Below are positions 9,708-17,077 of a stretch of 21,426 nt of DNA, in pieces (position 1 is the first letter of the stretch; every line of letters begins with the position of its first letter). This DNA is from Escherichia coli (GTDB lineage Bacteria > Pseudomonadota > Gammaproteobacteria > Enterobacterales > Enterobacteriaceae). Both the position numbers and the translations under genes were made by a program. The DNA lies in the NCBI RefSeq assembly GCF_003334765.1, contig NZ_QOWT01000047.1; one strand, given 5' to 3'. The notes under the pieces were generated by a model, which was not told the origin of the DNA, ran no database searches, and worked only from the letters and a program-made list of their open reading frames with translations.

Positions 9708-10553
9708 TTGAACAATTGGTCACCAGAGCATACAAAAGTCATCAAGAGCTGGTTTAAGATTGATACATATCGCAAATTTGAAGACCTCTCATTGATTCAG
9801 TTCTACCATGAGATATGGGCCCGTAAATTGTTCTTTAAGGAGTATCGGGAAGAGTTTGAGAGCAGAGCACTTGCGGGTTACTTCTCAAAAATTTTTAGTG
9901 GCAATCCTTTTTTAATTGAAGAAGGACAACTGGGATACATGACTCCTGCCAACAAACTTTTTCAACCTCCCCATTTCTTTCTCACAACTCTTGATCGCCT
10001 TGCTGAAACGAGCATTATTGCAATGCAACGTGGAGGTTTTCTTTGGCATGAAGGTGATAATTATTCTATAAACGCAGAGCTTCGAGAAGAATCACTTTCA
10101 GACATTATGCCAGATCAGTTTACACGAACGATCATGTTCGAGATTGATCTGGCAAGTGGCACAGACGAAGAGATTGCAGAGTCGCTTAAAGCTGCATTAC
10201 CGCAGTGGCGTAAAGTTAAGGGTATTGATGAAAACCCATTGGAATCTGTTCGTTTTGGATACGGAACTATCAAGAAACTCATCAGTTATCGTGTAATACC
10301 TATGCTTGATATCCTGGTGTGGGCAGCCGTTAAAAAAATCCGTGTCTCTGACGACAGGTTATCCAGACTACTATATACAGACGATGACGAAGAAAGCGAA
10401 ATGAGACAGTCCAGCCAAATCAAAGATACCGACAGGCCTTTGGCTCTTAAATCCTGCACAACTGACTTTATCCGACAATTCCATTACTTCATGAACAAAA
10501 ACAGCCATTTAAAGCAAATGAAAGTCTCTGATGTAATGAAACTATCGGATTAA
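9708..10553 (+). CDS. Hypothetical island protein (281 aa); possibly inovirus Gp2-like family
   Basis: Long ORF starting at TTG 9708 with GGTGGAG RBS about 8 nt upstream; no in-frame ATG until about codon 78. Positioned immediately upstream of an AlpA-family gene. Family assignment is from recall only. Confidence 0.55.
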   Translation: MNNWSPEHTKVIKSWFKIDTYRKFEDLSLIQFYHEIWARKLFFKEYREEFESRALAGYFSKIFSGNPFLIEEGQLGYMTPANKLFQPPHFFLTTLDRLAETSIIAMQRGGFLWHEGDNYSINAELREESLSDIMPDQFTRTIMFEIDLASGTDEEIAESLKAALPQWRKVKGIDENPLESVRFGYGTIKKLISYRVIPMLDILVWAAVKKIRVSDDRLSRLLYTDDDEESEMRQSSQIKDTDRPLALKSCTTDFIRQFHYFMNKNSHLKQMKVSDVMKLSD

Positions 10554-10597
10554 GAGTTAATTAATAACTGTCTGTTTTTTTATTATAAAAATAAACT

Positions 10598-10628
10598 AAA
10601 AGCACTACTGTAAATGGTGCTTTTTTTT
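10598..10628 (+). terminator. Rho-independent terminator candidate
   Basis: AAAGCAC-(loop)-GTGCTTT hairpin followed by a run of 8 T, 45 nt after the stop of 9708-10553. Confidence 0.5.
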
Positions 10629-10835
10629 GCGATTTTTACTTTAAACCGGCCATTTTTACACTTGCTATAAAACAGGGGAATTTCAGCTACTCTCAAGTTC
10701 CCTTGTTCTGTACTGCACCAACTTCGAGAAAACCATCCTGCACAGCAGCGAAGAACCTCCGCTTCAGGAGCTTCGCTCCTTTCTTTTCCCAACTGCTCGT
10801 ATAGTGACTTCACCGCAACGACAAGGGATAACGAA

Positions 10836-11042
10836 ATGAAAAATCAAGCAACCCGCCTCATACGCTTACCAGAAGTTCTCGAACGAACTGGCTACGGAAA
10901 AGCCTGGATCTATCGTCTGATCAACGATGGCAAGTTTCCTGCTCCTGTCAAAATTGGAAGTCGTGCAATAGCTTTCGTTGAAAGTGAGATTGATAGCTGG
11001 ATTCAGTCTGTTATCGAAACAAGTCGAAATAATGTTGCTTAA
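10836..11042 (+). CDS. alpA: AlpA-family phage/island transcriptional regulator (MerR-like HTH, 68 aa)
   Basis: MKNQATRLIRLPEVLERTGYGKAWIYRLINDGKFPAPVKIGSRAIAFVESEIDSWIQ matches the AlpA signature (LxRLxEVxxxTGxSxxxIYRLIxxGxFPxPxKxGxRAxAWxESEIxxWI). AAGGGA RBS 8 nt upstream of ATG. Confidence 0.85.
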   Translation: MKNQATRLIRLPEVLERTGYGKAWIYRLINDGKFPAPVKIGSRAIAFVESEIDSWIQSVIETSRNNVA

Positions 11043-11062
11043 TTGAATTTAGGAGAGATTTT

Positions 11063-11362
11063 ATGACTATCGAAGAATTTGTGAATGAAGAAAACCATAT
11101 GTGTAATCTGGGCCAGGAACTATTCTTTAAAATTTTCGAGCCTGAATCGATTTATAATTTACCCAATAACGAGTTTAATAAAGAAATAATATATTGGCTC
11201 AGTCAGTATCTTGTCGGAAATTTGATACAACCTTTAGACGCGATCTCAGAGCTTAATGCTTCCAAACAAATATATGTTTACGAGACTTGGTTTTCGCTAA
11301 TTAAATGCCCTGATGAAATGAAACTCTTGGCGAAGCGGATAATTGAATATTTATTGGATTAA
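11063..11362 (+). CDS. Hypothetical small protein (99 aa)
   Basis: ATG with AGGAGA RBS 7 nt upstream, 20 nt after the alpA stop (likely co-transcribed); AT-rich; no recognisable motif. Confidence 0.55.
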   Translation: MTIEEFVNEENHMCNLGQELFFKIFEPESIYNLPNNEFNKEIIYWLSQYLVGNLIQPLDAISELNASKQIYVYETWFSLIKCPDEMKLLAKRIIEYLLD

Positions 11363-11574
11363 GAAATTCATATGGCAATGCAAAGTTTTGCTGCATATTT
11401 TAGATTAAAACGTTAAAGAATAACTTGCATTATTTTTATGACCGTTCTTTTGCAAGGCAGTGAGATGGTTTTAGGTGGGTTGGGTGTGCATAATATTAAT
11501 AGTGTTAGGACGGTTTTTAGTATTAAGAAGTAATAATAATAGCCATTGGTGAAAATTATGACGGGATTTTTACC

Positions 11575-11886
11575 ATGACATTTCATATTAATAAGTATAG
11601 GAAAGTTAAAATGAATAATTCAATCATAGTACCAGAAGATAAAGATTTTGTATGTGCGTTTGCGACTTCACCGAATAGCTTTTATGAGGCTATTGAATCC
11701 TATCGTAATTATGTAGATCTAGTCCAAGAGATAGAGTTCGAGCACGTCTTTCTTTATTTATTGTTTTCTATAGTGGTCAATGGTAGTACAGATATTACGA
11801 TTAATGATGAAGTACGAATGTGTATTGAGCAGCTTGTCTATGAAAAAAATAGTATCAGAAATAATAATGCAGATAAAAAGATGTAA
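11575..11886 (+). CDS. Hypothetical small protein (103 aa; alternative start at 11611 gives 91 aa)
   Basis: ORF with possible internal start MNNSIIV… preceded by AGGAAA; followed by a strong terminator hairpin. Confidence 0.45.
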   Translation: MTFHINKYRKVKMNNSIIVPEDKDFVCAFATSPNSFYEAIESYRNYVDLVQEIEFEHVFLYLLFSIVVNGSTDITINDEVRMCIEQLVYEKNSIRNNNADKKM

Positions 11887-11907
11887 AGGCTGTAATAAAT
11901 TATCATG

Positions 11908-11945
11908 GGTACAGACAGCACAAGTCTGTACCTTCTTATTTTAAT
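11908..11945 (+). terminator. Rho-independent terminator
   Basis: Perfect 9-bp stem GGTACAGAC / GTCTGTACC with 7-nt loop, followed by TTCTTATTTTA. Confidence 0.6.
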
Positions 11946-12057
11946 TCAACAGATAATGATACATGAAAATTATGTGCTTTTGATAGTGGTCATCTGGTTT
12001 TCTATAGTAAACATTATAGGATATAGGTTATCCTGAATTTTAATATTATGCTCTTTT

Positions 12058-12363
12058 TTATTTAAAAGAGCTGAAAAATACAGGATTTAAATGGTGTTGG
12101 TATTTAAACTCAGTAGGTATAGTAACACTCGCATCAATCAGTTCTGTGATAGCCTGATAAAATTGAGTGGGTGTAATATGTATCCCTTCTTGCTGTGCTA
12201 TGGGCGTAACACGATGAAAAATTAGGTAAACAATGCTCTTATCTGGCTTATACGACGCGATTAATGTAAGCAACCAGAATACATTGTGAATAGTAGTGTT
12301 AAGATTATGACTTTCAACTGATGATTGATTATTTTGAAAGTAAGTGGAGAGTCTTTTTTGCAT
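12058..12363 (-). CDS. Hypothetical protein (101 aa)
   Basis: ORF downstream of and co-directional with 12428-12991; weak RBS; no motif recognised. Confidence 0.35.
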   Translation of the reverse strand: MQKRLSTYFQNNQSSVESHNLNTTIHNVFWLLTLIASYKPDKSIVYLIFHRVTPIAQQEGIHITPTQFYQAITELIDASVTIPTEFKYQHHLNPVFFSSFK

Positions 12364-12427
12364 AAAGGTATCGTTTTTTTGTTAATGTTATCACTCGCGT
12401 GGAGAAAATTACCACGCTGTAATGTTT

Positions 12428-12991
12428 TTAAAATGGAATGCCGTCTGCAGGATTTCGTCTTCTGGAGTTTTTAACTGATTTTGTTTTACTCCAGGCACGA
12501 TAAAAATTAAACGAATTGGCAAAATCTTCTGTCTCCAGTCTGGATTTTCTGAATTTATCCATCAGATCTTCATTGAAACGACGAGGAATTCCCTTAACGC
12601 ACAAGTTTGAATTCAGATATACCTGATTATCTATGGTGTCACGAATAAGTATTTTTTTTCCAAATAACTCTTTGAATGCACGTGAAACATTTGATTTATT
12701 CAGCCCAAGCTCTTTGGCAGTACGTGACTGTGAAAAATCAGGAATAATATTACCGTAATCAATGGCTGAGAAGAGATAAATCACAATTCTAAATGCTGTA
12801 GGCGTCAAATCCATTCTGGCGAGTGTCGCCATATTACCTTTAAATACCATTGAGAAATCGTCCTTGAAGGACGTCTTTTTATAGCTGGTTGCTTTAATTT
12901 TTATTTCTTCTAGATCTTCGGGCATAACCTCTAATGCTTCTGCAATAATGGATTTTTGTTCTTTAGTTAATACAACACTTGTGATTGACAT
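12428..12991 (-). CDS. Winged helix-turn-helix DNA-binding protein (187 aa), RepL-like / plasmid replication-associated candidate
   Basis: AGGAG RBS 5 nt upstream of ATG. Central segment …TPTAFRIVIYLFSAIDYGNIIPDFSQSRTAKELGLNKSNVSRAFKELFGKKILIR… has typical wHTH spacing. A divergent AT-rich region and tandem direct repeats lie 460-600 bp upstream. Family is inferred from motif pattern, not from a search. Confidence 0.6.
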   Translation of the reverse strand: MSITSVVLTKEQKSIIAEALEVMPEDLEEIKIKATSYKKTSFKDDFSMVFKGNMATLARMDLTPTAFRIVIYLFSAIDYGNIIPDFSQSRTAKELGLNKSNVSRAFKELFGKKILIRDTIDNQVYLNSNLCVKGIPRRFNEDLMDKFRKSRLETEDFANSFNFYRAWSKTKSVKNSRRRNPADGIPF

Positions 12992-13452
12992 AATGGCTCC
13001 TTTTTTATTGTTGTGATTACAGATATGGCATATTTAATTTATTTGTCAATGGTTTTGATGATATTATTTTAATTATATCTTATTTGAATTTTTTATCCGT
13101 TCTTTGGTGGTGGTAATAGGTTGTAAAATTTGAAACGAGGGGTGCTAAATTTAACCATCACCTGTTATGTGATTGATAATTTTTGGTGCTGAAATTAACA
13201 ACGGCATATTTTGTATAATCATATGATTTTATTAGATAATTTTTGATTTTGATCTGCAAGATAAAAGAGTGATAAAGAAATAAGAAACCACAGTTTTGCA
13301 TTTGATCGATACTCAAGGCCTTGGTGTACCTGATGAAAACATTTTTATTATTGCTTTTCTTAAATAATATCATTTGTAAATTGAAGCCTGCGCAACTGTG
13401 TGTTACGCCCCATTGGGCTTCAGAACATCACTATAGTGTTTTCAGTCAGTAT

Positions 13453-13600
13453 AAATACGCTTCGCGCACGAGTTCACAGTATTTAGGTTTACTGTCATTA
13501 AAAATACGCTTCGTGCAGAAGTTCAGAAAAATGGGGTTAGCTGTCAGCACAAATACGCTTCGCGCAAAAAAAAATCAGGAGGCTAAGTTGATCGAGAAAG
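13453..13600. repeat. Three direct repeats at exactly 49-bp spacing sharing a 16-bp core AAATACGCTTCG(C/T)GCA (iteron-like)
   Basis: Cores at 13453-13468, 13502-13517 and 13551-13566. Units 1 and 2 also share AGTTCA and CTGTCA blocks further along the 49-bp unit; unit 3 keeps only the core. Non-coding context. Confidence 0.7.
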
Positions 13601-14030
13601 CGAACACAGATACATGATTTACCCGTTTGCTGACTACGGCTCACGCCGGGACCCTTCGGAAAAACCCTTTCTGCTTCAGCGAGTGAGTGCTGCGGGCACT
13701 CAGAGGCGCTGCCAGGGAGACAAAATTAAGTTTTTCAACTGTTTGGTAAAAATAATTAACATTTATAGGTAGTCGGGGCGTAAGCCAGTGCGTAGCACGC
13801 TCTCAAAAAATATTCCTGTGGGTTTCTTATCTGCAATAGGGAAATAACTCAGATAATTGATATATGAAAAAACAATACAATCGGGAAGACACAACTTTAG
13901 CACAGTAAAAGCTATTTGTATTTATGAGGAATAAAATATATATGAATAATAAAATATTTTTATTTTGCTATTGATTTTAATTTTTAAGATGATAGTACTT
14001 AATTATAAAAACAAAATAATGGAGGAAATT

Positions 14031-14456
14031 ATGAGTGCTATTAATGTGTTATCTCAGGAGGAAAAATTTATACATGTTGTTGATAAATTTATAACCCATA
14101 ATCACAACGGCGTTAATAACAATGTCTTTTATAAAAAACTTTATGTTCTCTTCGCCGGATATCATCTGAAGTATTTTTATTCACGGGCGCAATATCGCAA
14201 TTCGTGTTATCACGTTGATAATATCATGCAGATGTTTATGGGTGTCGTTTCTACCCTGAAGACCCCTCTGCTCAGGCAACTCGCAAACAGTGACACATTG
14301 CTGCATTGCCTGAATTCGCTCGTGAATTATATTTCAGGCAATCTGGATGAAGCAGAGCACATTTATGCTGATTTACTGGCACAGTATGAAAAGAAACGCA
14401 TTGCACGTTCTCTGGCTTATACACCACCAGGATCCGTGGTCAGGAAAAGACTGTGA
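14031..14456 (+). CDS. Hypothetical protein (141 aa from ATG 14031; ORF track begins at 13965)
   Basis: GGAGG RBS 8 nt before ATG 14031 (MSAINVLSQ…). C-terminal tail …EKKRIARSLAYTPPGSVVRKRL resembles the tail of the ankyrin protein at 17683-18636. Confidence 0.5.
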   Translation: MSAINVLSQEEKFIHVVDKFITHNHNGVNNNVFYKKLYVLFAGYHLKYFYSRAQYRNSCYHVDNIMQMFMGVVSTLKTPLLRQLANSDTLLHCLNSLVNYISGNLDEAEHIYADLLAQYEKKRIARSLAYTPPGSVVRKRL

Positions 14457-14539
14457 GACATCGGAAATGCGCCGGACAAGGCAGAGTATGGCAGAGTGAC
14501 ATAAAAGCAGTCGTTTCCCGCAAGATATTACCGGGCATT

Positions 14540-14573
14540 AAAAAGGCAGGATCCACCGATTTGGTGTCCTGCC
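14540..14573. terminator. Bidirectional terminator hairpin between convergent genes
   Basis: GGCAGGA-(15-nt loop)-TCCTGCC perfect 7-bp stem, flanked by AAAAA on the 5' side (T-run on the minus strand) and a T-rich stretch on the 3' side. Confidence 0.5.
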
Positions 14574-14597
14574 TGGCGGGATTATTTTATTGTGGTC

Positions 14598-14918
14598 TTA
14601 CTTATCAACGACCTGCCAGCCATCATCTGTTTTGACCAGCTTGACAGCCGCTGTGCGTTTTTCGTTATCGACAACAGCTGTTACATTGCATTTATAGCTT
14701 TTATCCGATAGTTTTTCGCAGTCGTGTTTTTTGACTGATTTTAACTTCCGCAGCATGTCAGGCGTGATATCGTTTCTCGCTATGGATTTAACGATGGCAT
14801 TCGTCTGCTCCACGACCTTATTCATCGCAGTGTAAATATCCTGCTCAGACGGTTCACTGGTGCAGCCGGTCAGCAAAAAAATGGACGCAATGAGTGTGGT
14901 AAATGCATATGTTTTCAT
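14598..14918 (-). CDS. Small lipoprotein (106 aa)
   Basis: Signal peptide with lipobox LLTG|C (MKTYAFTTLIASIFLLTGC). Mature part ends …AAVKLVKTDDGWQVVDK. Confidence 0.7.
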   Translation of the reverse strand: MKTYAFTTLIASIFLLTGCTSEPSEQDIYTAMNKVVEQTNAIVKSIARNDITPDMLRKLKSVKKHDCEKLSDKSYKCNVTAVVDNEKRTAAVKLVKTDDGWQVVDK

Positions 14919-14944
14919 AAAATAATCCCAGACGGTAGAGTACG

Positions 14945-15343
14945 TTATTGAAAAAGGCCGGTTTTCATCTTGCTGTTGTTTTCAGAGAACGTCCACTTGC
15001 TGACGGTTTCGCCTTTAAATTCGATTTCCAGCGTTTTGGCCTGCGTCTGTGAACCCCCGGTCAGCAGTCCAATCACGGGAATGAATGTGGTGGCATCAAA
15101 CTGATTGTTGTCCATCGAATAAGTCCATTGTTCATTGCCACTATCAAGTGTAGTTTTGGTTTCGGGCTGACCGAATGCGGTAATGATTTCTGATTTCGTT
15201 GTTTTATTTTTGATGATTTTCGACTGCAGACTTTGTGATGTTTCTTTTTTTAGATGCTGGTTGCCTGATGTTGAACAGCCAGAAATAAGTAAAGAAGAAA
15301 TAAAAAACACAGAAATCATGAATCTGTTCATAAGTTTTCTCAT
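14945..15343 (-). CDS. Lipoprotein (132 aa) with BamE/SmpA-OmlA-like motif
   Basis: Lipobox LISG|C. Segment …EIITAFGQPETKTTLDSGNEQWTYSMD… resembles the BamE-type LGxP…W.Y motif. Possible alternative start at M5 (15331). Confidence 0.65.
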   Translation of the reverse strand: MRKLMNRFMISVFFISSLLISGCSTSGNQHLKKETSQSLQSKIIKNKTTKSEIITAFGQPETKTTLDSGNEQWTYSMDNNQFDATTFIPVIGLLTGGSQTQAKTLEIEFKGETVSKWTFSENNSKMKTGLFQ

Positions 15344-15841: not shown

Positions 15842-17077
15842 TTATGGTGCAGGATGGTTGTTGTTTTTAAATGATTGTTCTTTATTGGTATTTGTTGTCA
15901 TGGGATGACAGGGTGTCAGAATATGTAGGTGGAGGATTTGGTGGAAAGGATGTGCAGTGGCATGTAACAGAGACATGCCTCTGCGCCTGAGAAGTGCCAC
16001 AATATGGACGAGCAATACAAGCCATGAATACAGACGACGCTGGCGGGGTATCTGACGAGCTGTATTGTGCAGATTGCTCCTGAGCTGGATGATACCCACT
16101 GTCTCCTGTTGTCTTTCCAGACGAATTTTTTCTTCAAGCTGATGGATTTTCTCCAGAATCGTTTCCCGGTTTGCAGCCTGCTCTTCAGACTCGCATGATG
16201 GCACTGGCACTGGCACTGGCACTGGCACTGGCACTGGCACTGGCGCGGTTGTAGGTTCTATTGGCCTCTGGGCTTCTTTCAGTAAACTCAGATGCTCAGG
16301 CGTAAAATCAATCAGTGCTTGCAGGGAAGACCAGCCATATTTTTTACCCAACTGAGATGCTTTAAAGGCAATACCCTGGTATTGAAATGAAAATCCACTC
16401 ATTTTACCCGTAGTGGCGATATTGGGTTTGCAGGTCACTCCTTCCTGTTCCAGTAAGCGAACAAAGGTTAGTAAATCGGGATGGTGTGTTAATGCATTGT
16501 CGAGCAGGGCCTGCAACAGTGACTTAGGGCAGGGAGCTGCTGTGCGTTCTGCCATCATCAGTTCATTACGGGAAGGCTTCCTTTTATCCTGGCGGCTACT
16601 GCCGGTTACACCCGTAGTTTCGGTGAGGCCGTGTACTCTCTCCAGCTCACTGATAATCCGTGTGCCGATAAGATTTTCATTTTTCCCCAGGTACAGTTTT
16701 CCACCGACCATGTTAATACGACTTGCAATGATATGAATATGCTGCCCATCCGGATCATCGTGCATGATATAGCAGCGAAGATGGGTGTCAGTGAAGCCCA
16801 TTCGGGCCATATAATCGTCAGCGAATGCTGCCCACTGTCTGTTTGACAGTTTCTCACCCTTTGGCAGGCGAAGTGAATTATGCCAGACAGGTTTGGCGAC
16901 ATCGGGACGCAGCAGTCGGGTGCCTTCAAATTCACTTATAAGCTCAGCAGCAGTGCTACCCGTCATGTTGCCACCGATGACATAAGGCGTGATTTTGTGG
17001 TGAGAACCTGACTTCAGGCTATAAATAACCACACCTGTGAATTGTTTACCCCTTTTTATTTTCTGCATGCCTTTCAT
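15842..17077 (-). CDS. Plasmid mobilization relaxase (MobA/VirD2-like relaxase domain), 411 aa
   Basis: N-terminal candidate catalytic Tyr (…VVIYSLK…) and histidine-triad motif HDDPDGQHIHIIASRIN (HxDxDxxHxHxxxxxxN). Start ATG overlaps the mobC stop (ATGA). Central (PV)7 linker. C-terminal about 80 aa is unusual in composition and the gene may be 3'-degenerate. Confidence 0.8.
   Translation of the reverse strand: MKGMQKIKRGKQFTGVVIYSLKSGSHHKITPYVIGGNMTGSTAAELISEFEGTRLLRPDVAKPVWHNSLRLPKGEKLSNRQWAAFADDYMARMGFTDTHLRCYIMHDDPDGQHIHIIASRINMVGGKLYLGKNENLIGTRIISELERVHGLTETTGVTGSSRQDKRKPSRNELMMAERTAAPCPKSLLQALLDNALTHHPDLLTFVRLLEQEGVTCKPNIATTGKMSGFSFQYQGIAFKASQLGKKYGWSSLQALIDFTPEHLSLLKEAQRPIEPTTAPVPVPVPVPVPVPVPSCESEEQAANRETILEKIHQLEEKIRLERQQETVGIIQLRSNLHNTARQIPRQRRLYSWLVLLVHIVALLRRRGMSLLHATAHPFHQILHLHILTPCHPMTTNTNKEQSFKNNNHPAP
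16201..16242. repeat. Perfect hexanucleotide simple-sequence repeat (GCACTG)x7, in-frame in the relaxase gene (encodes PVPVPVPVPVPVPV)
   Basis: Seven perfect tandem copies read directly from the sequence. Confidence 0.9.

What the first reader, a model, noticed from the sequence alone, without database searches (positions are those of the whole stretch)
11063..11886. Two small AT-rich ORFs downstream of alpA
The 99-aa gene starts 20 nt after alpA with a good RBS, and the second small ORF is followed by a strong terminator. Small unknown proteins in this position on islands are frequently regulators, anti-defence or toxin-antitoxin-like factors.
Basis: inference. Interest (0 to 1): 0.3.

Follow-up and report, generated by a model that had tools for sequence, protein, structure and literature searches.

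The report
Two unrelated small island genes after alpA
Both small genes downstream of alpA are real, but they are not a pair: the first belongs to an unnamed family that travels with the excision-regulator gene alpA on genomic islands, the second is part of a separate add-on cassette, and neither function is known, so this is an ordinary result.

Summary
ORF1 (11063-11362, 99 aa) starts 20 nt after alpA behind an AGGAGA ribosome-binding site. A second ORF ends at 11886 and is followed by a strong terminator (-16 kcal/mol, z -5.7). Both are AT-rich (33% and 31.5% GC). Homologs put the ORF2 start at 11611 (91 aa), not 11575.

Both are coding: dN/dS is 0.08-0.13 for ORF1 and 0.29-0.57 for ORF2. 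They are not a unit. The window is a mosaic joined at 11497-11502, just after the motif GGTGTGCATAAT. Left of it, DUF6387-alpA-ORF1 matches one island type (about 86%). Right of it, ORF2-o101-o187 matches another (about 88%) that normally lacks ORF1. ORF2 and the convergent, unannotated o101 (12058-12363) form a 930-bp cassette absent from a Pseudocitrobacter island.

ORF1 belongs to an unnamed family of about 100-aa acidic, all-helical proteins (AF2 pLDDT 94.5). It has no Pfam, NCBIfam, PHROG, PADLOC, PDB or viral structural relative. In Enterobacterales it always follows an AlpA/Vis-type gene by 12-21 nt, typically as tRNA-Leu, P4-type integrase, DUF6387, alpA, ORF1.

My best guess is inferred, not shown: ORF1 is a protein-binding accessory of the excision and regulation module, and ORF2/o101 is fast-evolving cargo. 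A toxin-antitoxin pair is not supported. Interest is low to moderate.

The parts
9708..10553 (+). DUF6387 family gene (281 aa). It is the first gene of the DUF6387-alpA-ORF1 head module and has its own terminator-like hairpin at about 10598-10632.
   Evidence: PGAP product name. PF19924 on homologs. PHROG 23422 at E 5e-31. Hairpin -9.7 kcal/mol, z -3.0.
10836..11042 (+). alpA: an AlpA/Vis-type winged-helix excisionase and transcriptional regulator (68 aa, pI 9.7).
   Evidence: 37% identity to P4 Vis, E 7e-15. PHROG 66/2790. PF05930 on homologs. The EARL-island homolog SEN1998 was characterised as having the features of an RDF and binds the island's attachment regions (PMC8844411).
11051..11056 (+). 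AGGAGA ribosome-binding site of ORF1, 6 nt before the ATG.
   Evidence: Read from the sequence.
11063..11362 (+). ORF1: 99 aa, acidic (pI 4.4), all-helical. It belongs to an unnamed conserved family that always follows alpA in Enterobacterales.
   Evidence: 108 clusters of homologs. 58 clusters at 50% identity in the exhaustive HMM search. dN/dS 0.08-0.13. AF2 pLDDT 94.5, pTM 0.85. Synteny.
11363..11482 (+). Conserved 3' spacer that travels with alpA-ORF1. It holds no convincing terminator or structured RNA.
   Evidence: Alignments. Fold z-scores +0.9 and +1.05. No Rfam hit.
11483..11502 (+). Module-boundary motif GGTGTGCATAAT (consensus GGTGTACATAAT) and the mosaic junction at 11497-11502. 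Sequence to the right differs according to which module follows.
   Evidence: Ungapped identity is 0.64 in the 40 nt to the left and 0.33 in the 40 nt to the right, across 8 loci with different downstream modules.
11599..11604 (+). AGGAAA ribosome-binding site of ORF2 (AGGAG in homologs), 6 nt before the ATG at 11611.
11611..11886 (+). ORF2: 91 aa, acidic (pI 4.4). It belongs to a narrow Enterobacteriaceae family, evolves fast, and is the first gene of a 930-bp two-gene cassette.
   Evidence: homologs of 91 aa with an invariant N-terminus. (start). dN/dS 0.29-0.57. Cassette indel relative to L028. AF2 model poor, pLDDT 53.6.
11907..11943 (+). Intrinsic terminator after ORF2: 10-bp stem, 7-nt loop, T-run. 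It is conserved in ORF2-bearing islands.
12058..12363 (-). o101: a 101-aa gene convergent with ORF2 and always present or absent together with it. It is not annotated in the identical RefSeq record. A hairpin lies at its 3' end (about 12049-12070).
   Evidence: tblastn synteny. Intact 101-aa ORFs at 58-66% identity. dN/dS 0.23-0.69. Annotated by PGAP in strain ET745. Hairpin -15.5 kcal/mol, z -5.0.
12428..12991 (-). o187: a helix-turn-helix protein and backbone gene of the relaxase-bearing island. It marks the right edge of the ORF2/o101 cassette.
   Evidence: PGAP name 'helix-turn-helix domain-containing protein'. Weak phage-O/Rep-like hits. dN/dS 0.08-0.15. L028 joins the motif directly to the o187 stop codon.

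Best explanation
The finding is two real, unrelated small protein genes lying on either side of a recombination junction in a decayed integrative mobilizable island of E. coli, next to ypjA and between ileY and ssrA.

Shown:
- ORF1 is the second gene of the alpA transcription unit.
- It belongs to an unnamed, strongly constrained family of about 100-aa acidic, all-helical proteins.
- In Enterobacterales this gene always follows an AlpA/Vis-type excisionase-regulator gene by 12-21 nt. It typically sits in a head module of tRNA-Leu, P4-type integrase, DUF6387, alpA, ORF1.
- ORF1 divergence tracks that of AlpA (r = 0.80) and not that of DUF6387 (r = 0.26).
- ORF2 (91 aa, 11611-11886) belongs to a different module. 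Together with the convergent o101 it forms a 930-bp cassette that is gained or lost as a unit.
- ORF2 evolves three to five times faster than ORF1. It ends at a conserved terminator.

Inferred:
- No terminator separates ORF1 from ORF2, so alpA, ORF1 and ORF2 are probably read as one transcript that stops at 11907-11943.
- ORF1 has no DNA-binding features and is acidic, next to the basic AlpA. It most likely works by binding a protein, as an optional accessory of the island's excision and regulation module. The target could be AlpA, the integrase, or a host or helper factor.
- ORF2/o101 is dispensable cargo of unknown role.

The two ORFs are not a toxin-antitoxin pair.
For: - Coding status. ORF1 dN/dS is 0.08-0.13, with variable sites by codon position 29/18/66. 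ORF2 dN/dS is 0.29-0.57, with a synonymous excess at p down to 5e-4. ORF lengths are constant.
- Family. ORF1 has 108 homolog clusters in Escherichia, Salmonella, Klebsiella, Enterobacter, Citrobacter, Cronobacter, Serratia and Erwinia. It has 58 clusters at 50% identity in the exhaustive search. The AF2 model has pLDDT 94.5 and eight helices. The family's median pI is 4.64.
- Synteny. alpA-ORF1 is adjacent in all enterobacterial loci examined. Gaps are 12-21 nt, with r = 0.80 against AlpA.
- Integrase. An integrase 58% identical to P4 Int lies next to tRNA-Leu(CAA) and directly upstream of DUF6387-alpA-ORF1 in L023-L032.
- Distant homolog. A 38%-identical homolog sits in the order integrase, 106 aa, homolog, DUF3987, TrwC.
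- Mosaic. Window 9625-11499 is about 86% identical to the ORF1-type islands. Window 11500-14600 is about 88% identical to the ORF2-type islands. The same breakpoints appear in the 5426 E. coli genomes. L028 equals the window minus 11501-12430.
- Separate distribution. ORF2-type islands lack ORF1.
- Terminators. There is one after ORF2 and none after ORF1.
Against: - ORF1 cannot be an obligatory AlpA cofactor. Very common ORF2-type islands carry an AlpA 74-75% identical to this one and have no ORF1.
- Distant family members (25-38% identity) have no Pfam-recognisable AlpA next to them.
- The AlpA-ORF1 correlation may reflect physical linkage only.
- Co-transcription of ORF2 with alpA is inferred from the absence of a terminator. 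It is not shown.
Confidence: 0.5

Rival explanations
1. ORF1 and ORF2 form a toxin-antitoxin or similar addiction pair that stabilises the island.
For: Two adjacent small genes on a mobile island. No tool result supports it.
Against: - The two are unrelated modules joined by recombination.
- ORF1 occurs without ORF2 in most loci. ORF2 occurs without ORF1 in at least 10 loci, and one ORF2 homolog alone is indexed in 2412 blocks of the assembly collection.
- They are 248 nt apart.
- Neither hits a TA, Abi or PADLOC family.
- Both are acidic.
Confidence: 0.03
2. ORF1 is an anti-defence or establishment protein. It would be an acidic protein or DNA mimic, like ArdA or Ocr, made early from the alpA promoter to protect the island or its helper after transfer. 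It would not be part of excision control.
For: - The family is uniformly acidic, with median pI 4.64.
- It is small, compact and helical, with no DNA-binding motif.
- The family is confined to mobile-element contexts, including loci with TrwC relaxases.
- It is dispensable for islands with a near-identical AlpA.
Against: - No structural similarity to ArdA, Ocr or any viral protein.
- No plasmid or phage homologs at all. tblastn against 72,556 plasmids gave none. The single hit in the 50,697 phage records is a Salmonella genome contig. This is unusual for leading-region anti-restriction genes.
- Very strong purifying selection (0.08-0.13) is atypical of arms-race proteins.
- Its position is integrase-proximal. 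It has not been shown to be oriT-proximal.
Confidence: 0.2
3. ORF1 works like phage P4 epsilon. It would be a small protein encoded just after the Vis/AlpA gene that binds and inactivates a repressor of a helper element, either a phage or a conjugative plasmid or ICE, so that the island can exploit it.
For: - P4 has the same order and sizes: vis (88 aa) and, in the same operon, epsilon (95 aa, 'helper derepression protein').
- The island's integrase and AlpA are P4-type, at 58% and 37% identity.
- The island carries a relaxase but no transfer apparatus was seen in the window, so it would need a helper.
Against: - No detectable similarity between the ORF1 profile and P4 epsilon (hhalign probability 0.1%).
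- No PHROG hit.
- No helper or target is known.
Confidence: 0.1
4. ORF2 and o101 form a self-contained conflict cassette, such as a small defence, immunity or addiction pair, carried as island cargo.
For: - They are gained or lost together as a 930-bp unit.
- Both evolve fast, at dN/dS 0.29-0.57 and 0.23-0.69, while the neighbouring o187 is at 0.08-0.15.
- One is acidic and the other mildly basic.
- Taxonomic range is narrow.
Against: - The convergent orientation, each gene with its own hairpin, is unusual for two-gene toxin/immunity operons.
- No family hit in PADLOC, NCBIfam, PHROGs or Pfam.
- The ORF2 structure prediction is unreliable.
- High dN/dS may simply mean weak constraint.
Confidence: 0.2
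5. One or both ORFs are chance open frames in AT-rich spacer DNA.
For: The DNA is AT-rich and no family is annotated. ORF2 has only moderate constraint.
Against: - Codon-position bias and dN/dS below 1.
- Constant ORF length at 53-99% identity (ORF1) and 56-99% identity (ORF2) across genera.
- Conserved ribosome-binding sites.
- A confident fold for ORF1.
Confidence: 0.02

Closest known systems
Phage P4 vis (ORF88) and epsilon in the P4 left operon
   Same: An AlpA/Vis-type excisionase-regulator gene is followed in the same operon by a protein of about 95-100 aa with no DNA-binding motif. The related leuX islands share the P4-type integrase (58% identity) and the leuX target with P4.
   Different: There is no sequence or profile similarity between ORF1 or ORF2 and epsilon. 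In P4 the cI region lies between vis and epsilon. This island has a relaxase and no P4 capsid-size, psu or primase genes in this module.
EARL (ROD21-like) genomic islands, e.g. ICEKp258.2 and ROD21, with the RDF SEN1998
   Same: The islands have a P4-like integrase, a DUF6387 gene followed by an AlpA-family RDF, a run of about 100-aa hypothetical genes after it, and a relaxase. The ICEKp258.2 table lists DUF6387 (287 aa), AlpA (72 aa), then 109, 103, 96 and 126 aa (PMC10763509). SEN1998 binds the att regions (PMC8844411).
   Different: EARL islands integrate at tRNA-Asn, with the integrase and DUF6387-AlpA at opposite ends. The islands studied here sit at ssrA/ypjA or at leuX, with the integrase directly upstream of DUF6387. 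I could not test whether the EARL 109-aa gene is an ORF1 homolog. The small genes have not been studied in that literature.
GInt elements (ginABCD; Bardaji et al. 2017, PMC5385486)
   Same: In most ORF1-bearing loci the motif after ORF1 is followed by an operon with the GInt order and sizes. It has two tyrosine recombinases (400 and 435-513 aa), a 620-665-aa protein with no recognisable family, and a 128-131-aa protein. GInts are reported in 7.5% of Escherichia replicons (PMC10214605).
   Different: This operon is absent from the window, where ORF2/o101/o187 occupy its place. Flanking imperfect direct repeats were not found. Homology to the published GinC and GinD was not tested. In L002/L003 the DUF6387-alpA-ORF1 genes lie inside the segment that is identical at two chromosomal sites.
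Type II toxin-antitoxin modules
   Same: Small adjacent genes on a mobile island.
   Different: The two genes are not co-inherited and are not in one tight operon. Neither resembles any toxin or antitoxin family.
Acidic DNA-mimic anti-restriction proteins (ArdA, Ocr)
   Same: Small, strongly acidic proteins encoded on mobile elements.
   Different: There is no fold or sequence similarity. ORF1 is absent from plasmids and phages. It is under strong purifying selection.

Membership tests
AlpA/Vis family (PF05930) - the upstream gene | Winged-helix, about 60-90 aa, basic, similar in sequence to AlpA/Vis/TorI-type excisionase-regulators. | tested here: met
   37% identity to P4 Vis, E 7e-15. PHROG 66/2790 at 1e-10. 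PF05930 on homologs. pI 9.69.
Type II toxin-antitoxin pair (ORF1+ORF2) | The two genes are co-inherited as a unit. | tested here: not met
   ORF1 occurs without ORF2 and ORF2 without ORF1 in most loci. The mosaic junction at 11497-11502 lies between them.
Type II toxin-antitoxin pair (ORF1+ORF2) | Similarity to a known toxin or antitoxin family. | tested here: not met
   No hits in Pfam, NCBIfam, PHROGs or PADLOC.
Type II toxin-antitoxin pair (ORF1+ORF2) | One product is toxic and the other neutralises it. | not testable with these tools
   Needs expression experiments.
P4 epsilon (helper derepression protein) | Sequence or profile similarity to epsilon. | tested here: not met
   hhalign probability 0.1% for ORF1 and 0.5% for ORF2.
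P4 epsilon (helper derepression protein) | Encoded downstream of vis/alpA in the same operon and about 95 aa long. | tested here: met
   (position and size only).
DNA-mimic anti-restriction proteins (ArdA/Ocr) | Strongly acidic surface. | tested here: met
   pI 4.44, net charge -9.4, family median pI 4.64. This measures overall composition only. The surface itself was not analysed.
DNA-mimic anti-restriction proteins (ArdA/Ocr) | ArdA- or Ocr-like fold or sequence. | tested here: not met
EARL (ROD21-like) islands - the surrounding element | Integration at a tRNA-Asn gene by a P4-like integrase. | tested here: not met
   The window lies between ileY/ypjA and ssrA. Related ORF1 islands are at tRNA-Leu(CAA).
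EARL (ROD21-like) islands - the surrounding element | A DUF6387 gene followed by a SEN1998-type AlpA RDF, plus a relaxase. | tested here: met
GInt (for the operon that follows ORF1 in related loci) | Four-gene operon: two tyrosine recombinases, a large recombinase-fold protein without catalytic residues, and a small protein. | tested here: inconclusive
   Order and sizes fit, and the first two are tyrosine recombinases. The fold and catalytic residues of the third, and homology to the published GinC/GinD, were not tested.
GInt (for the operon that follows ORF1 in related loci) | Flanking imperfect direct repeats of 10-17 nt. | tested here: not met
   No second copy of the motif within 3 mismatches in L034 or the window beyond chance. 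None was found near the right-hand homology boundary.
Intrinsic (Rho-independent) terminator after ORF2 | A GC-containing hairpin followed by a U-run, more stable than chance, and conserved. | tested here: met

The most novel reading that the evidence does not exclude
The conserved spacer and the GGTGTACATAAT motif, 115-135 nt after ORF1, could be a dedicated docking or exchange site inside P4-integrase islands. At this site GInt-type tyrosine-recombinase elements and other cassettes would be swapped in and out. In GInt-bearing loci the motif is followed by 4-5 variable nucleotides and then the conserved ACTAGATCTACC. That layout looks like a hybrid attL with a variable crossover region. In this reading the alpA-ORF1 pair is the control module for the exchange. 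ORF1 would be a previously unrecognised recombination-directionality or targeting cofactor.
Probability: 0.12. Interest if true: 0.55.

Novelty: new member of a known kind. Interest (0 to 1): 0.28.

Why it matters
ORF1 defines a compact, confidently folded protein family with no name. It is as tightly conserved as the island's core genes. It is consistently attached to the AlpA/Vis excision regulator of P4-integrase-type islands at leuX and ssrA. These are common carriers of virulence and defence genes in Enterobacterales.

If ORF1 modulates excision, or manipulates a helper element, it would be a missing component of how these islands control their mobility. The family is a reasonable candidate for a new domain-family entry and for a simple knockout and excision assay.

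The sharp module boundary after ORF1 is a practical marker for dissecting mosaic islands. Beyond that, the finding is ordinary: hypothetical accessory genes on a decayed island, with no evidence of a new kind of system.

Tried and rejected
- Family searches. Pfam, NCBIfam, PHROGs and PADLOC were run on ORF1, ORF2, o101 and o187. Nothing was significant for ORF1, ORF2 or o101. o187 gave only weak HTH/Rep-like hits.
- PDB profile searches found nothing.
- The ORF2 AF2 model was too poor (pLDDT 53.6) to search with.
- ORF1 against ORF2, and each against P4 epsilon, by profile comparison: unrelated.
- The ORF1 3' spacer as a structured RNA or terminator. RNAalifold gave a weak consensus (-4 kcal/mol, no convincing covariation). 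Single-sequence z-scores were positive. There was no Rfam hit. Rejected.
- The motif as one of a pair of att repeats. No second copy was found. Unresolved.
- A simple model in which a GInt inserted into the window-type island. Rejected, because the GInt-bearing islands replace window 11500-14970. They do not interrupt it.
- A search for ORF1 on plasmids and phages found none.
- A literature search for the RefSeq accessions of these proteins found no paper.
- A degenerate-pattern scan with the broad alignment A3 failed because no block was conserved enough. The narrower A1 was used instead.
Full report
**Where the window comes from.** The region is 100% identical to the chromosome of E. coli FORC 064 and about 70 other complete E. 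coli genomes. It lies between ileY/ypjA and, further on, ssrA. This is the position that carries prophage CP4-57 in K-12 (my own knowledge). Here it holds a different, AT-rich island. The gene order is DUF6387 (9708-10553), alpA (10836-11042), ORF1, ORF2, two minus-strand genes (o101, o187), about 1 kb of non-coding DNA, several small genes, a MobP-type relaxase (15842-17077) and an ankyrin protein. In strain G3/10 the complete relative runs from the ssrA-proximal integrase to DUF6387 beside ypjA.

**Checking the observation.**
- The alpA stop codon is at 11040-11042. AGGAGA is at 11051-11056 and the ORF1 ATG at 11063, so the gap is exactly 20 nt.
- The upstream gene really is AlpA/Vis-type. 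It is 37% identical to P4 Vis. It hits excisionase/regulator PHROGs. Its homologs carry PF05930.
- The hairpin after the second ORF (11907-11933 plus a T-run) folds at -16 kcal/mol, against -5.1 for shuffles (z -5.7). It is conserved in related loci.
- GC content is 33% and 31.5%, against 40% for the window.
- The only correction concerns the start of the second gene. Homologs are 91 aa and have an invariant N-terminus, MNNSIxVPEDKDFVCAF. A conserved AGGAG lies upstream of it. The 11575 ATG is not conserved, so the gene is 11611-11886. PGAP agrees.

**Are they genes?** Yes.
- ORF1 has 108 homolog clusters at 53-99% identity across at least eight enterobacterial genera. It aligns without internal gaps.
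- ORF1 has pairwise dN/dS of 0.08-0.13. Variable sites by codon position are 29/18/66. That is as constrained as the backbone gene o187 (0.08-0.15).
- ORF2 has only 18-24 clusters, all from Enterobacteriaceae. One of them is listed in 2412 blocks of the assembly index, from Salmonella and related Enterobacteriaceae.
- ORF2 has dN/dS of 0.29-0.57, with a significant synonymous excess in several pairs. It is coding, but it evolves fast.

**They are not a pair.**
- Window 9625-11499 matches one island type at about 86%: DUF6387-alpA-ORF1 followed by a recombinase operon.
- Window 11500-14600 matches another type at about 88%: DUF6387-alpA-ORF2-o101-o187... That type has no ORF1.
- The same breakpoints appear in the complete E. 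coli genomes. Of 5426 genomes, 71 have the full arrangement at 99% identity or more. Others match only up to about 11502, or only from about 11497 or 11516 onward.
- A Pseudocitrobacter island equals the window minus 11501-12430. So ORF2 and the convergent o101 form a 930-bp cassette that is present or absent as a unit.
- o101 is unannotated in the identical RefSeq record. It is nevertheless an intact 101-aa ORF in all ORF2 loci, with dN/dS 0.23-0.69.
- The ORF1 and ORF2 profiles are unrelated.
- One strain has lost ORF1, ORF2 and o101 through an IS5-associated deletion.

**What ORF1 is.**
- An exhaustive HMM search widened the family to 58 clusters at 50% identity, mostly 95-105 aa.
- With a 41-sequence alignment, AlphaFold2 gives a very confident compact eight-helix model, with pLDDT 94.5 and pTM 0.85.
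- No member hits any Pfam family.
- The family is uniformly acidic, with median pI 4.64. AlpA has pI 9.7.
- ORF1 homologs are absent from 72,556 plasmids and from true phage records.

**Genomic association of ORF1.**
- In every enterobacterial locus examined, ORF1 follows alpA on the same strand. The gap is 12-21 nt, across 25-97% pairwise ORF1 identity.
- Pairwise divergence of ORF1 tracks that of AlpA (r = 0.80). It does not track that of DUF6387 (r = 0.26). So alpA-ORF1 is the co-inherited unit.
- In islands from Citrobacter, Kosakonia, Buttiauxella, Pseudocitrobacter, Erwinia and others, the order is tRNA-Leu(CAA), integrase, DUF6387, alpA, ORF1. The integrase is 58% identical to P4 Int.
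- A 38%-identical homolog lies in the order integrase, 106 aa, homolog, DUF3987, TrwC.
- Other distant members have no recognisable AlpA beside them.
- The window's copy has lost its integrase. The DUF6387 flank abuts ypjA.

**The boundary after ORF1.**
- A spacer of 115-135 nt travels with alpA-ORF1 and ends in GGTGTACATAAT (window 11483-11494, GGTGTGCATAAT).
- Immediately beyond this motif the sequence depends on what follows. It can be a four-gene recombinase operon with the gene order and sizes of GInt ginABCD, always starting ACTAGATCTACC after 4-5 variable bases. It can be ORF2, as in the window. It can be o187 directly (L028). It can also be unrelated DNA (L007, L029, L030, L033).
- Ungapped identity among eight such loci is 0.64 to the left of the motif and 0.33 to the right.
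- I found no second copy of the motif that would make it one of a pair of att repeats.
- The GInt-bearing islands replace window 11500-14970. They do not interrupt it.
- I therefore call it a module boundary and recombination breakpoint. An att-like function is only the speculative reading.
- The spacer shows no convincing RNA structure or terminator. Transcription from alpA therefore probably continues through ORF2 to the conserved terminator. This is an inference.

**Mechanism.**
- Shown: two real genes, ORF1 operonic with alpA, ORF2 in a separate cassette, and no family assignment for either.
- Inferred, at roughly one chance in three: ORF1 is an optional, protein-binding accessory of the excision and regulation module. 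It is acidic and has no DNA-binding features. It is co-expressed with a basic RDF-type protein and linked to integrases. It is under core-gene-like constraint.
- It cannot be an obligatory AlpA cofactor. The widespread ORF2-type islands have a 74-75%-identical AlpA and no ORF1.
- Rivals are an anti-defence or establishment protein, and a P4-epsilon-like helper derepressor. P4 has vis followed by epsilon in the same operon, but there is no homology.
- ORF2/o101 looks like dispensable, fast-evolving cargo. A conflict function is possible but untested.
- An ORF1-ORF2 toxin-antitoxin pair is effectively excluded by their distribution.

**Literature.** The DUF6387-AlpA arrangement followed by several genes of about 100 aa is listed for ICEKp258.2 and the ROD21-like (EARL) islands (PMC10763509). 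There the AlpA homolog SEN1998 binds the att regions and behaves as an RDF (PMC8844411). None of those papers studies the downstream small genes. No paper in the library cites the RefSeq accessions of these proteins. GInt and related recombinase elements are described in PMC5385486 and PMC10214605.

**Verdict.** ORF1 is a conserved alpA-linked accessory gene. The two ORFs are not a functional pair, and a TA reading is not supported. This is a new member of a known kind: uncharacterised accessory genes of P4-integrase/AlpA islands. It is worth a family definition and a simple excision assay, but it is not surprising to a specialist.

Noticed in passing
window 13433-13566: Three tandem 49-bp repeats with the conserved core AAATACGCTTCGCGCA. 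They lie in the roughly 1-kb AT-rich non-coding stretch between o187 (HTH, weak phage-O/Rep-like hits) and the 141-163-aa gene. They look like iterons or an oriT-type site, which suggests the island may replicate or be nicked here.
   Followed up: no
window 12058-12363 (-): A conserved 101-aa gene (o101) is not annotated in the 100%-identical RefSeq record NZ_CP022664. It is annotated in strain ET745, and it is intact in all ORF2-bearing loci.
   Followed up: yes
window 11488-11499 and 12040-12051: A perfect 12-nt inverted repeat (GCATAATATTAA / TTAATATTATGC) brackets ORF2 and its terminator. One arm overlaps the boundary motif. The sequence was not seen at the corresponding position in the ORF2-type loci read (L012, L018, L040), so it may be chance in AT-rich DNA.
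   Followed up: partly
L012, L018, L040 (about 15-90 nt after the alpA stop): Islands that lack ORF1 carry a conserved 22-23-codon micro-ORF after alpA, ending ..KW(C/R)YSxMxRGPP*. It occupies the position that ORF1 takes in the window.
   Followed up: no
L008-L011, L023-L027, L031, L032, L034, L037 (downstream of ORF1): A four-gene operon with GInt-like order: tyrosine recombinases of 400 aa and 435-513 aa, a 620-665-aa protein with no family, and a 128-131-aa protein. It starts about 100-160 nt after the boundary motif. In E. coli G3/10 it is pseudogenised (frameshifts and a partial gene).
   Followed up: partly
L002 vs L003 (Salmonella): A 7.6-kb segment starting 147 nt upstream of DUF6387 is 100% identical in two assemblies but has different left flanks (a LysR gene in one, rph in the other). 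It contains DUF6387-alpA-ORF1 plus the recombinase operon. The whole unit has either moved or been rearranged recently. L007 shares L002's left flank and stops at the motif, followed by slsA-cigR-mgtB-mgtC.
   Followed up: partly
window 1569-1644: ARAGORN calls this tRNA-Met (CAT), whereas RefSeq annotates tRNA-Ile. It is probably ileY, whose CAT anticodon is lysidine-modified (my own knowledge).
   Followed up: no
window 4550-9259: The ypjA/EhaD autotransporter reads as one 1569-aa ORF in the window. PGAP flags it as frameshifted in the identical strain. It is intact in G3/10 and N-terminally truncated in another strain.
   Followed up: no
L039 (E. coli Res13-Lact-PER04-33): An IS5 sits immediately after the alpA stop codon, with an associated deletion. 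The deletion removes ORF1, ORF2 and o101 and truncates o187. These genes are therefore dispensable.
   Followed up: yes
window 17683-18636 (-) and L034 34219-37866, 32412-34229, 17362-18324: The ankyrin-repeat protein hits the PADLOC candidate PDC-M72A (E 3e-8). The G3/10 relative of the island carries a 1215-aa AAA protein and a PLD-like protein next to the ssrA integrase. It also carries an adenylate/guanylate cyclase-domain gene beside DUF6387. These are possible defence cargo.
   Followed up: no
window 14598-14918 (-) and 14945-15343 (-): Two small backbone genes give weak lipoprotein or superinfection-exclusion-like hits (Cor-like PHROG 1119; PHROG 3135 at 5e-24). These may be surface or entry-exclusion functions of the mobilizable island.
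   Followed up: no
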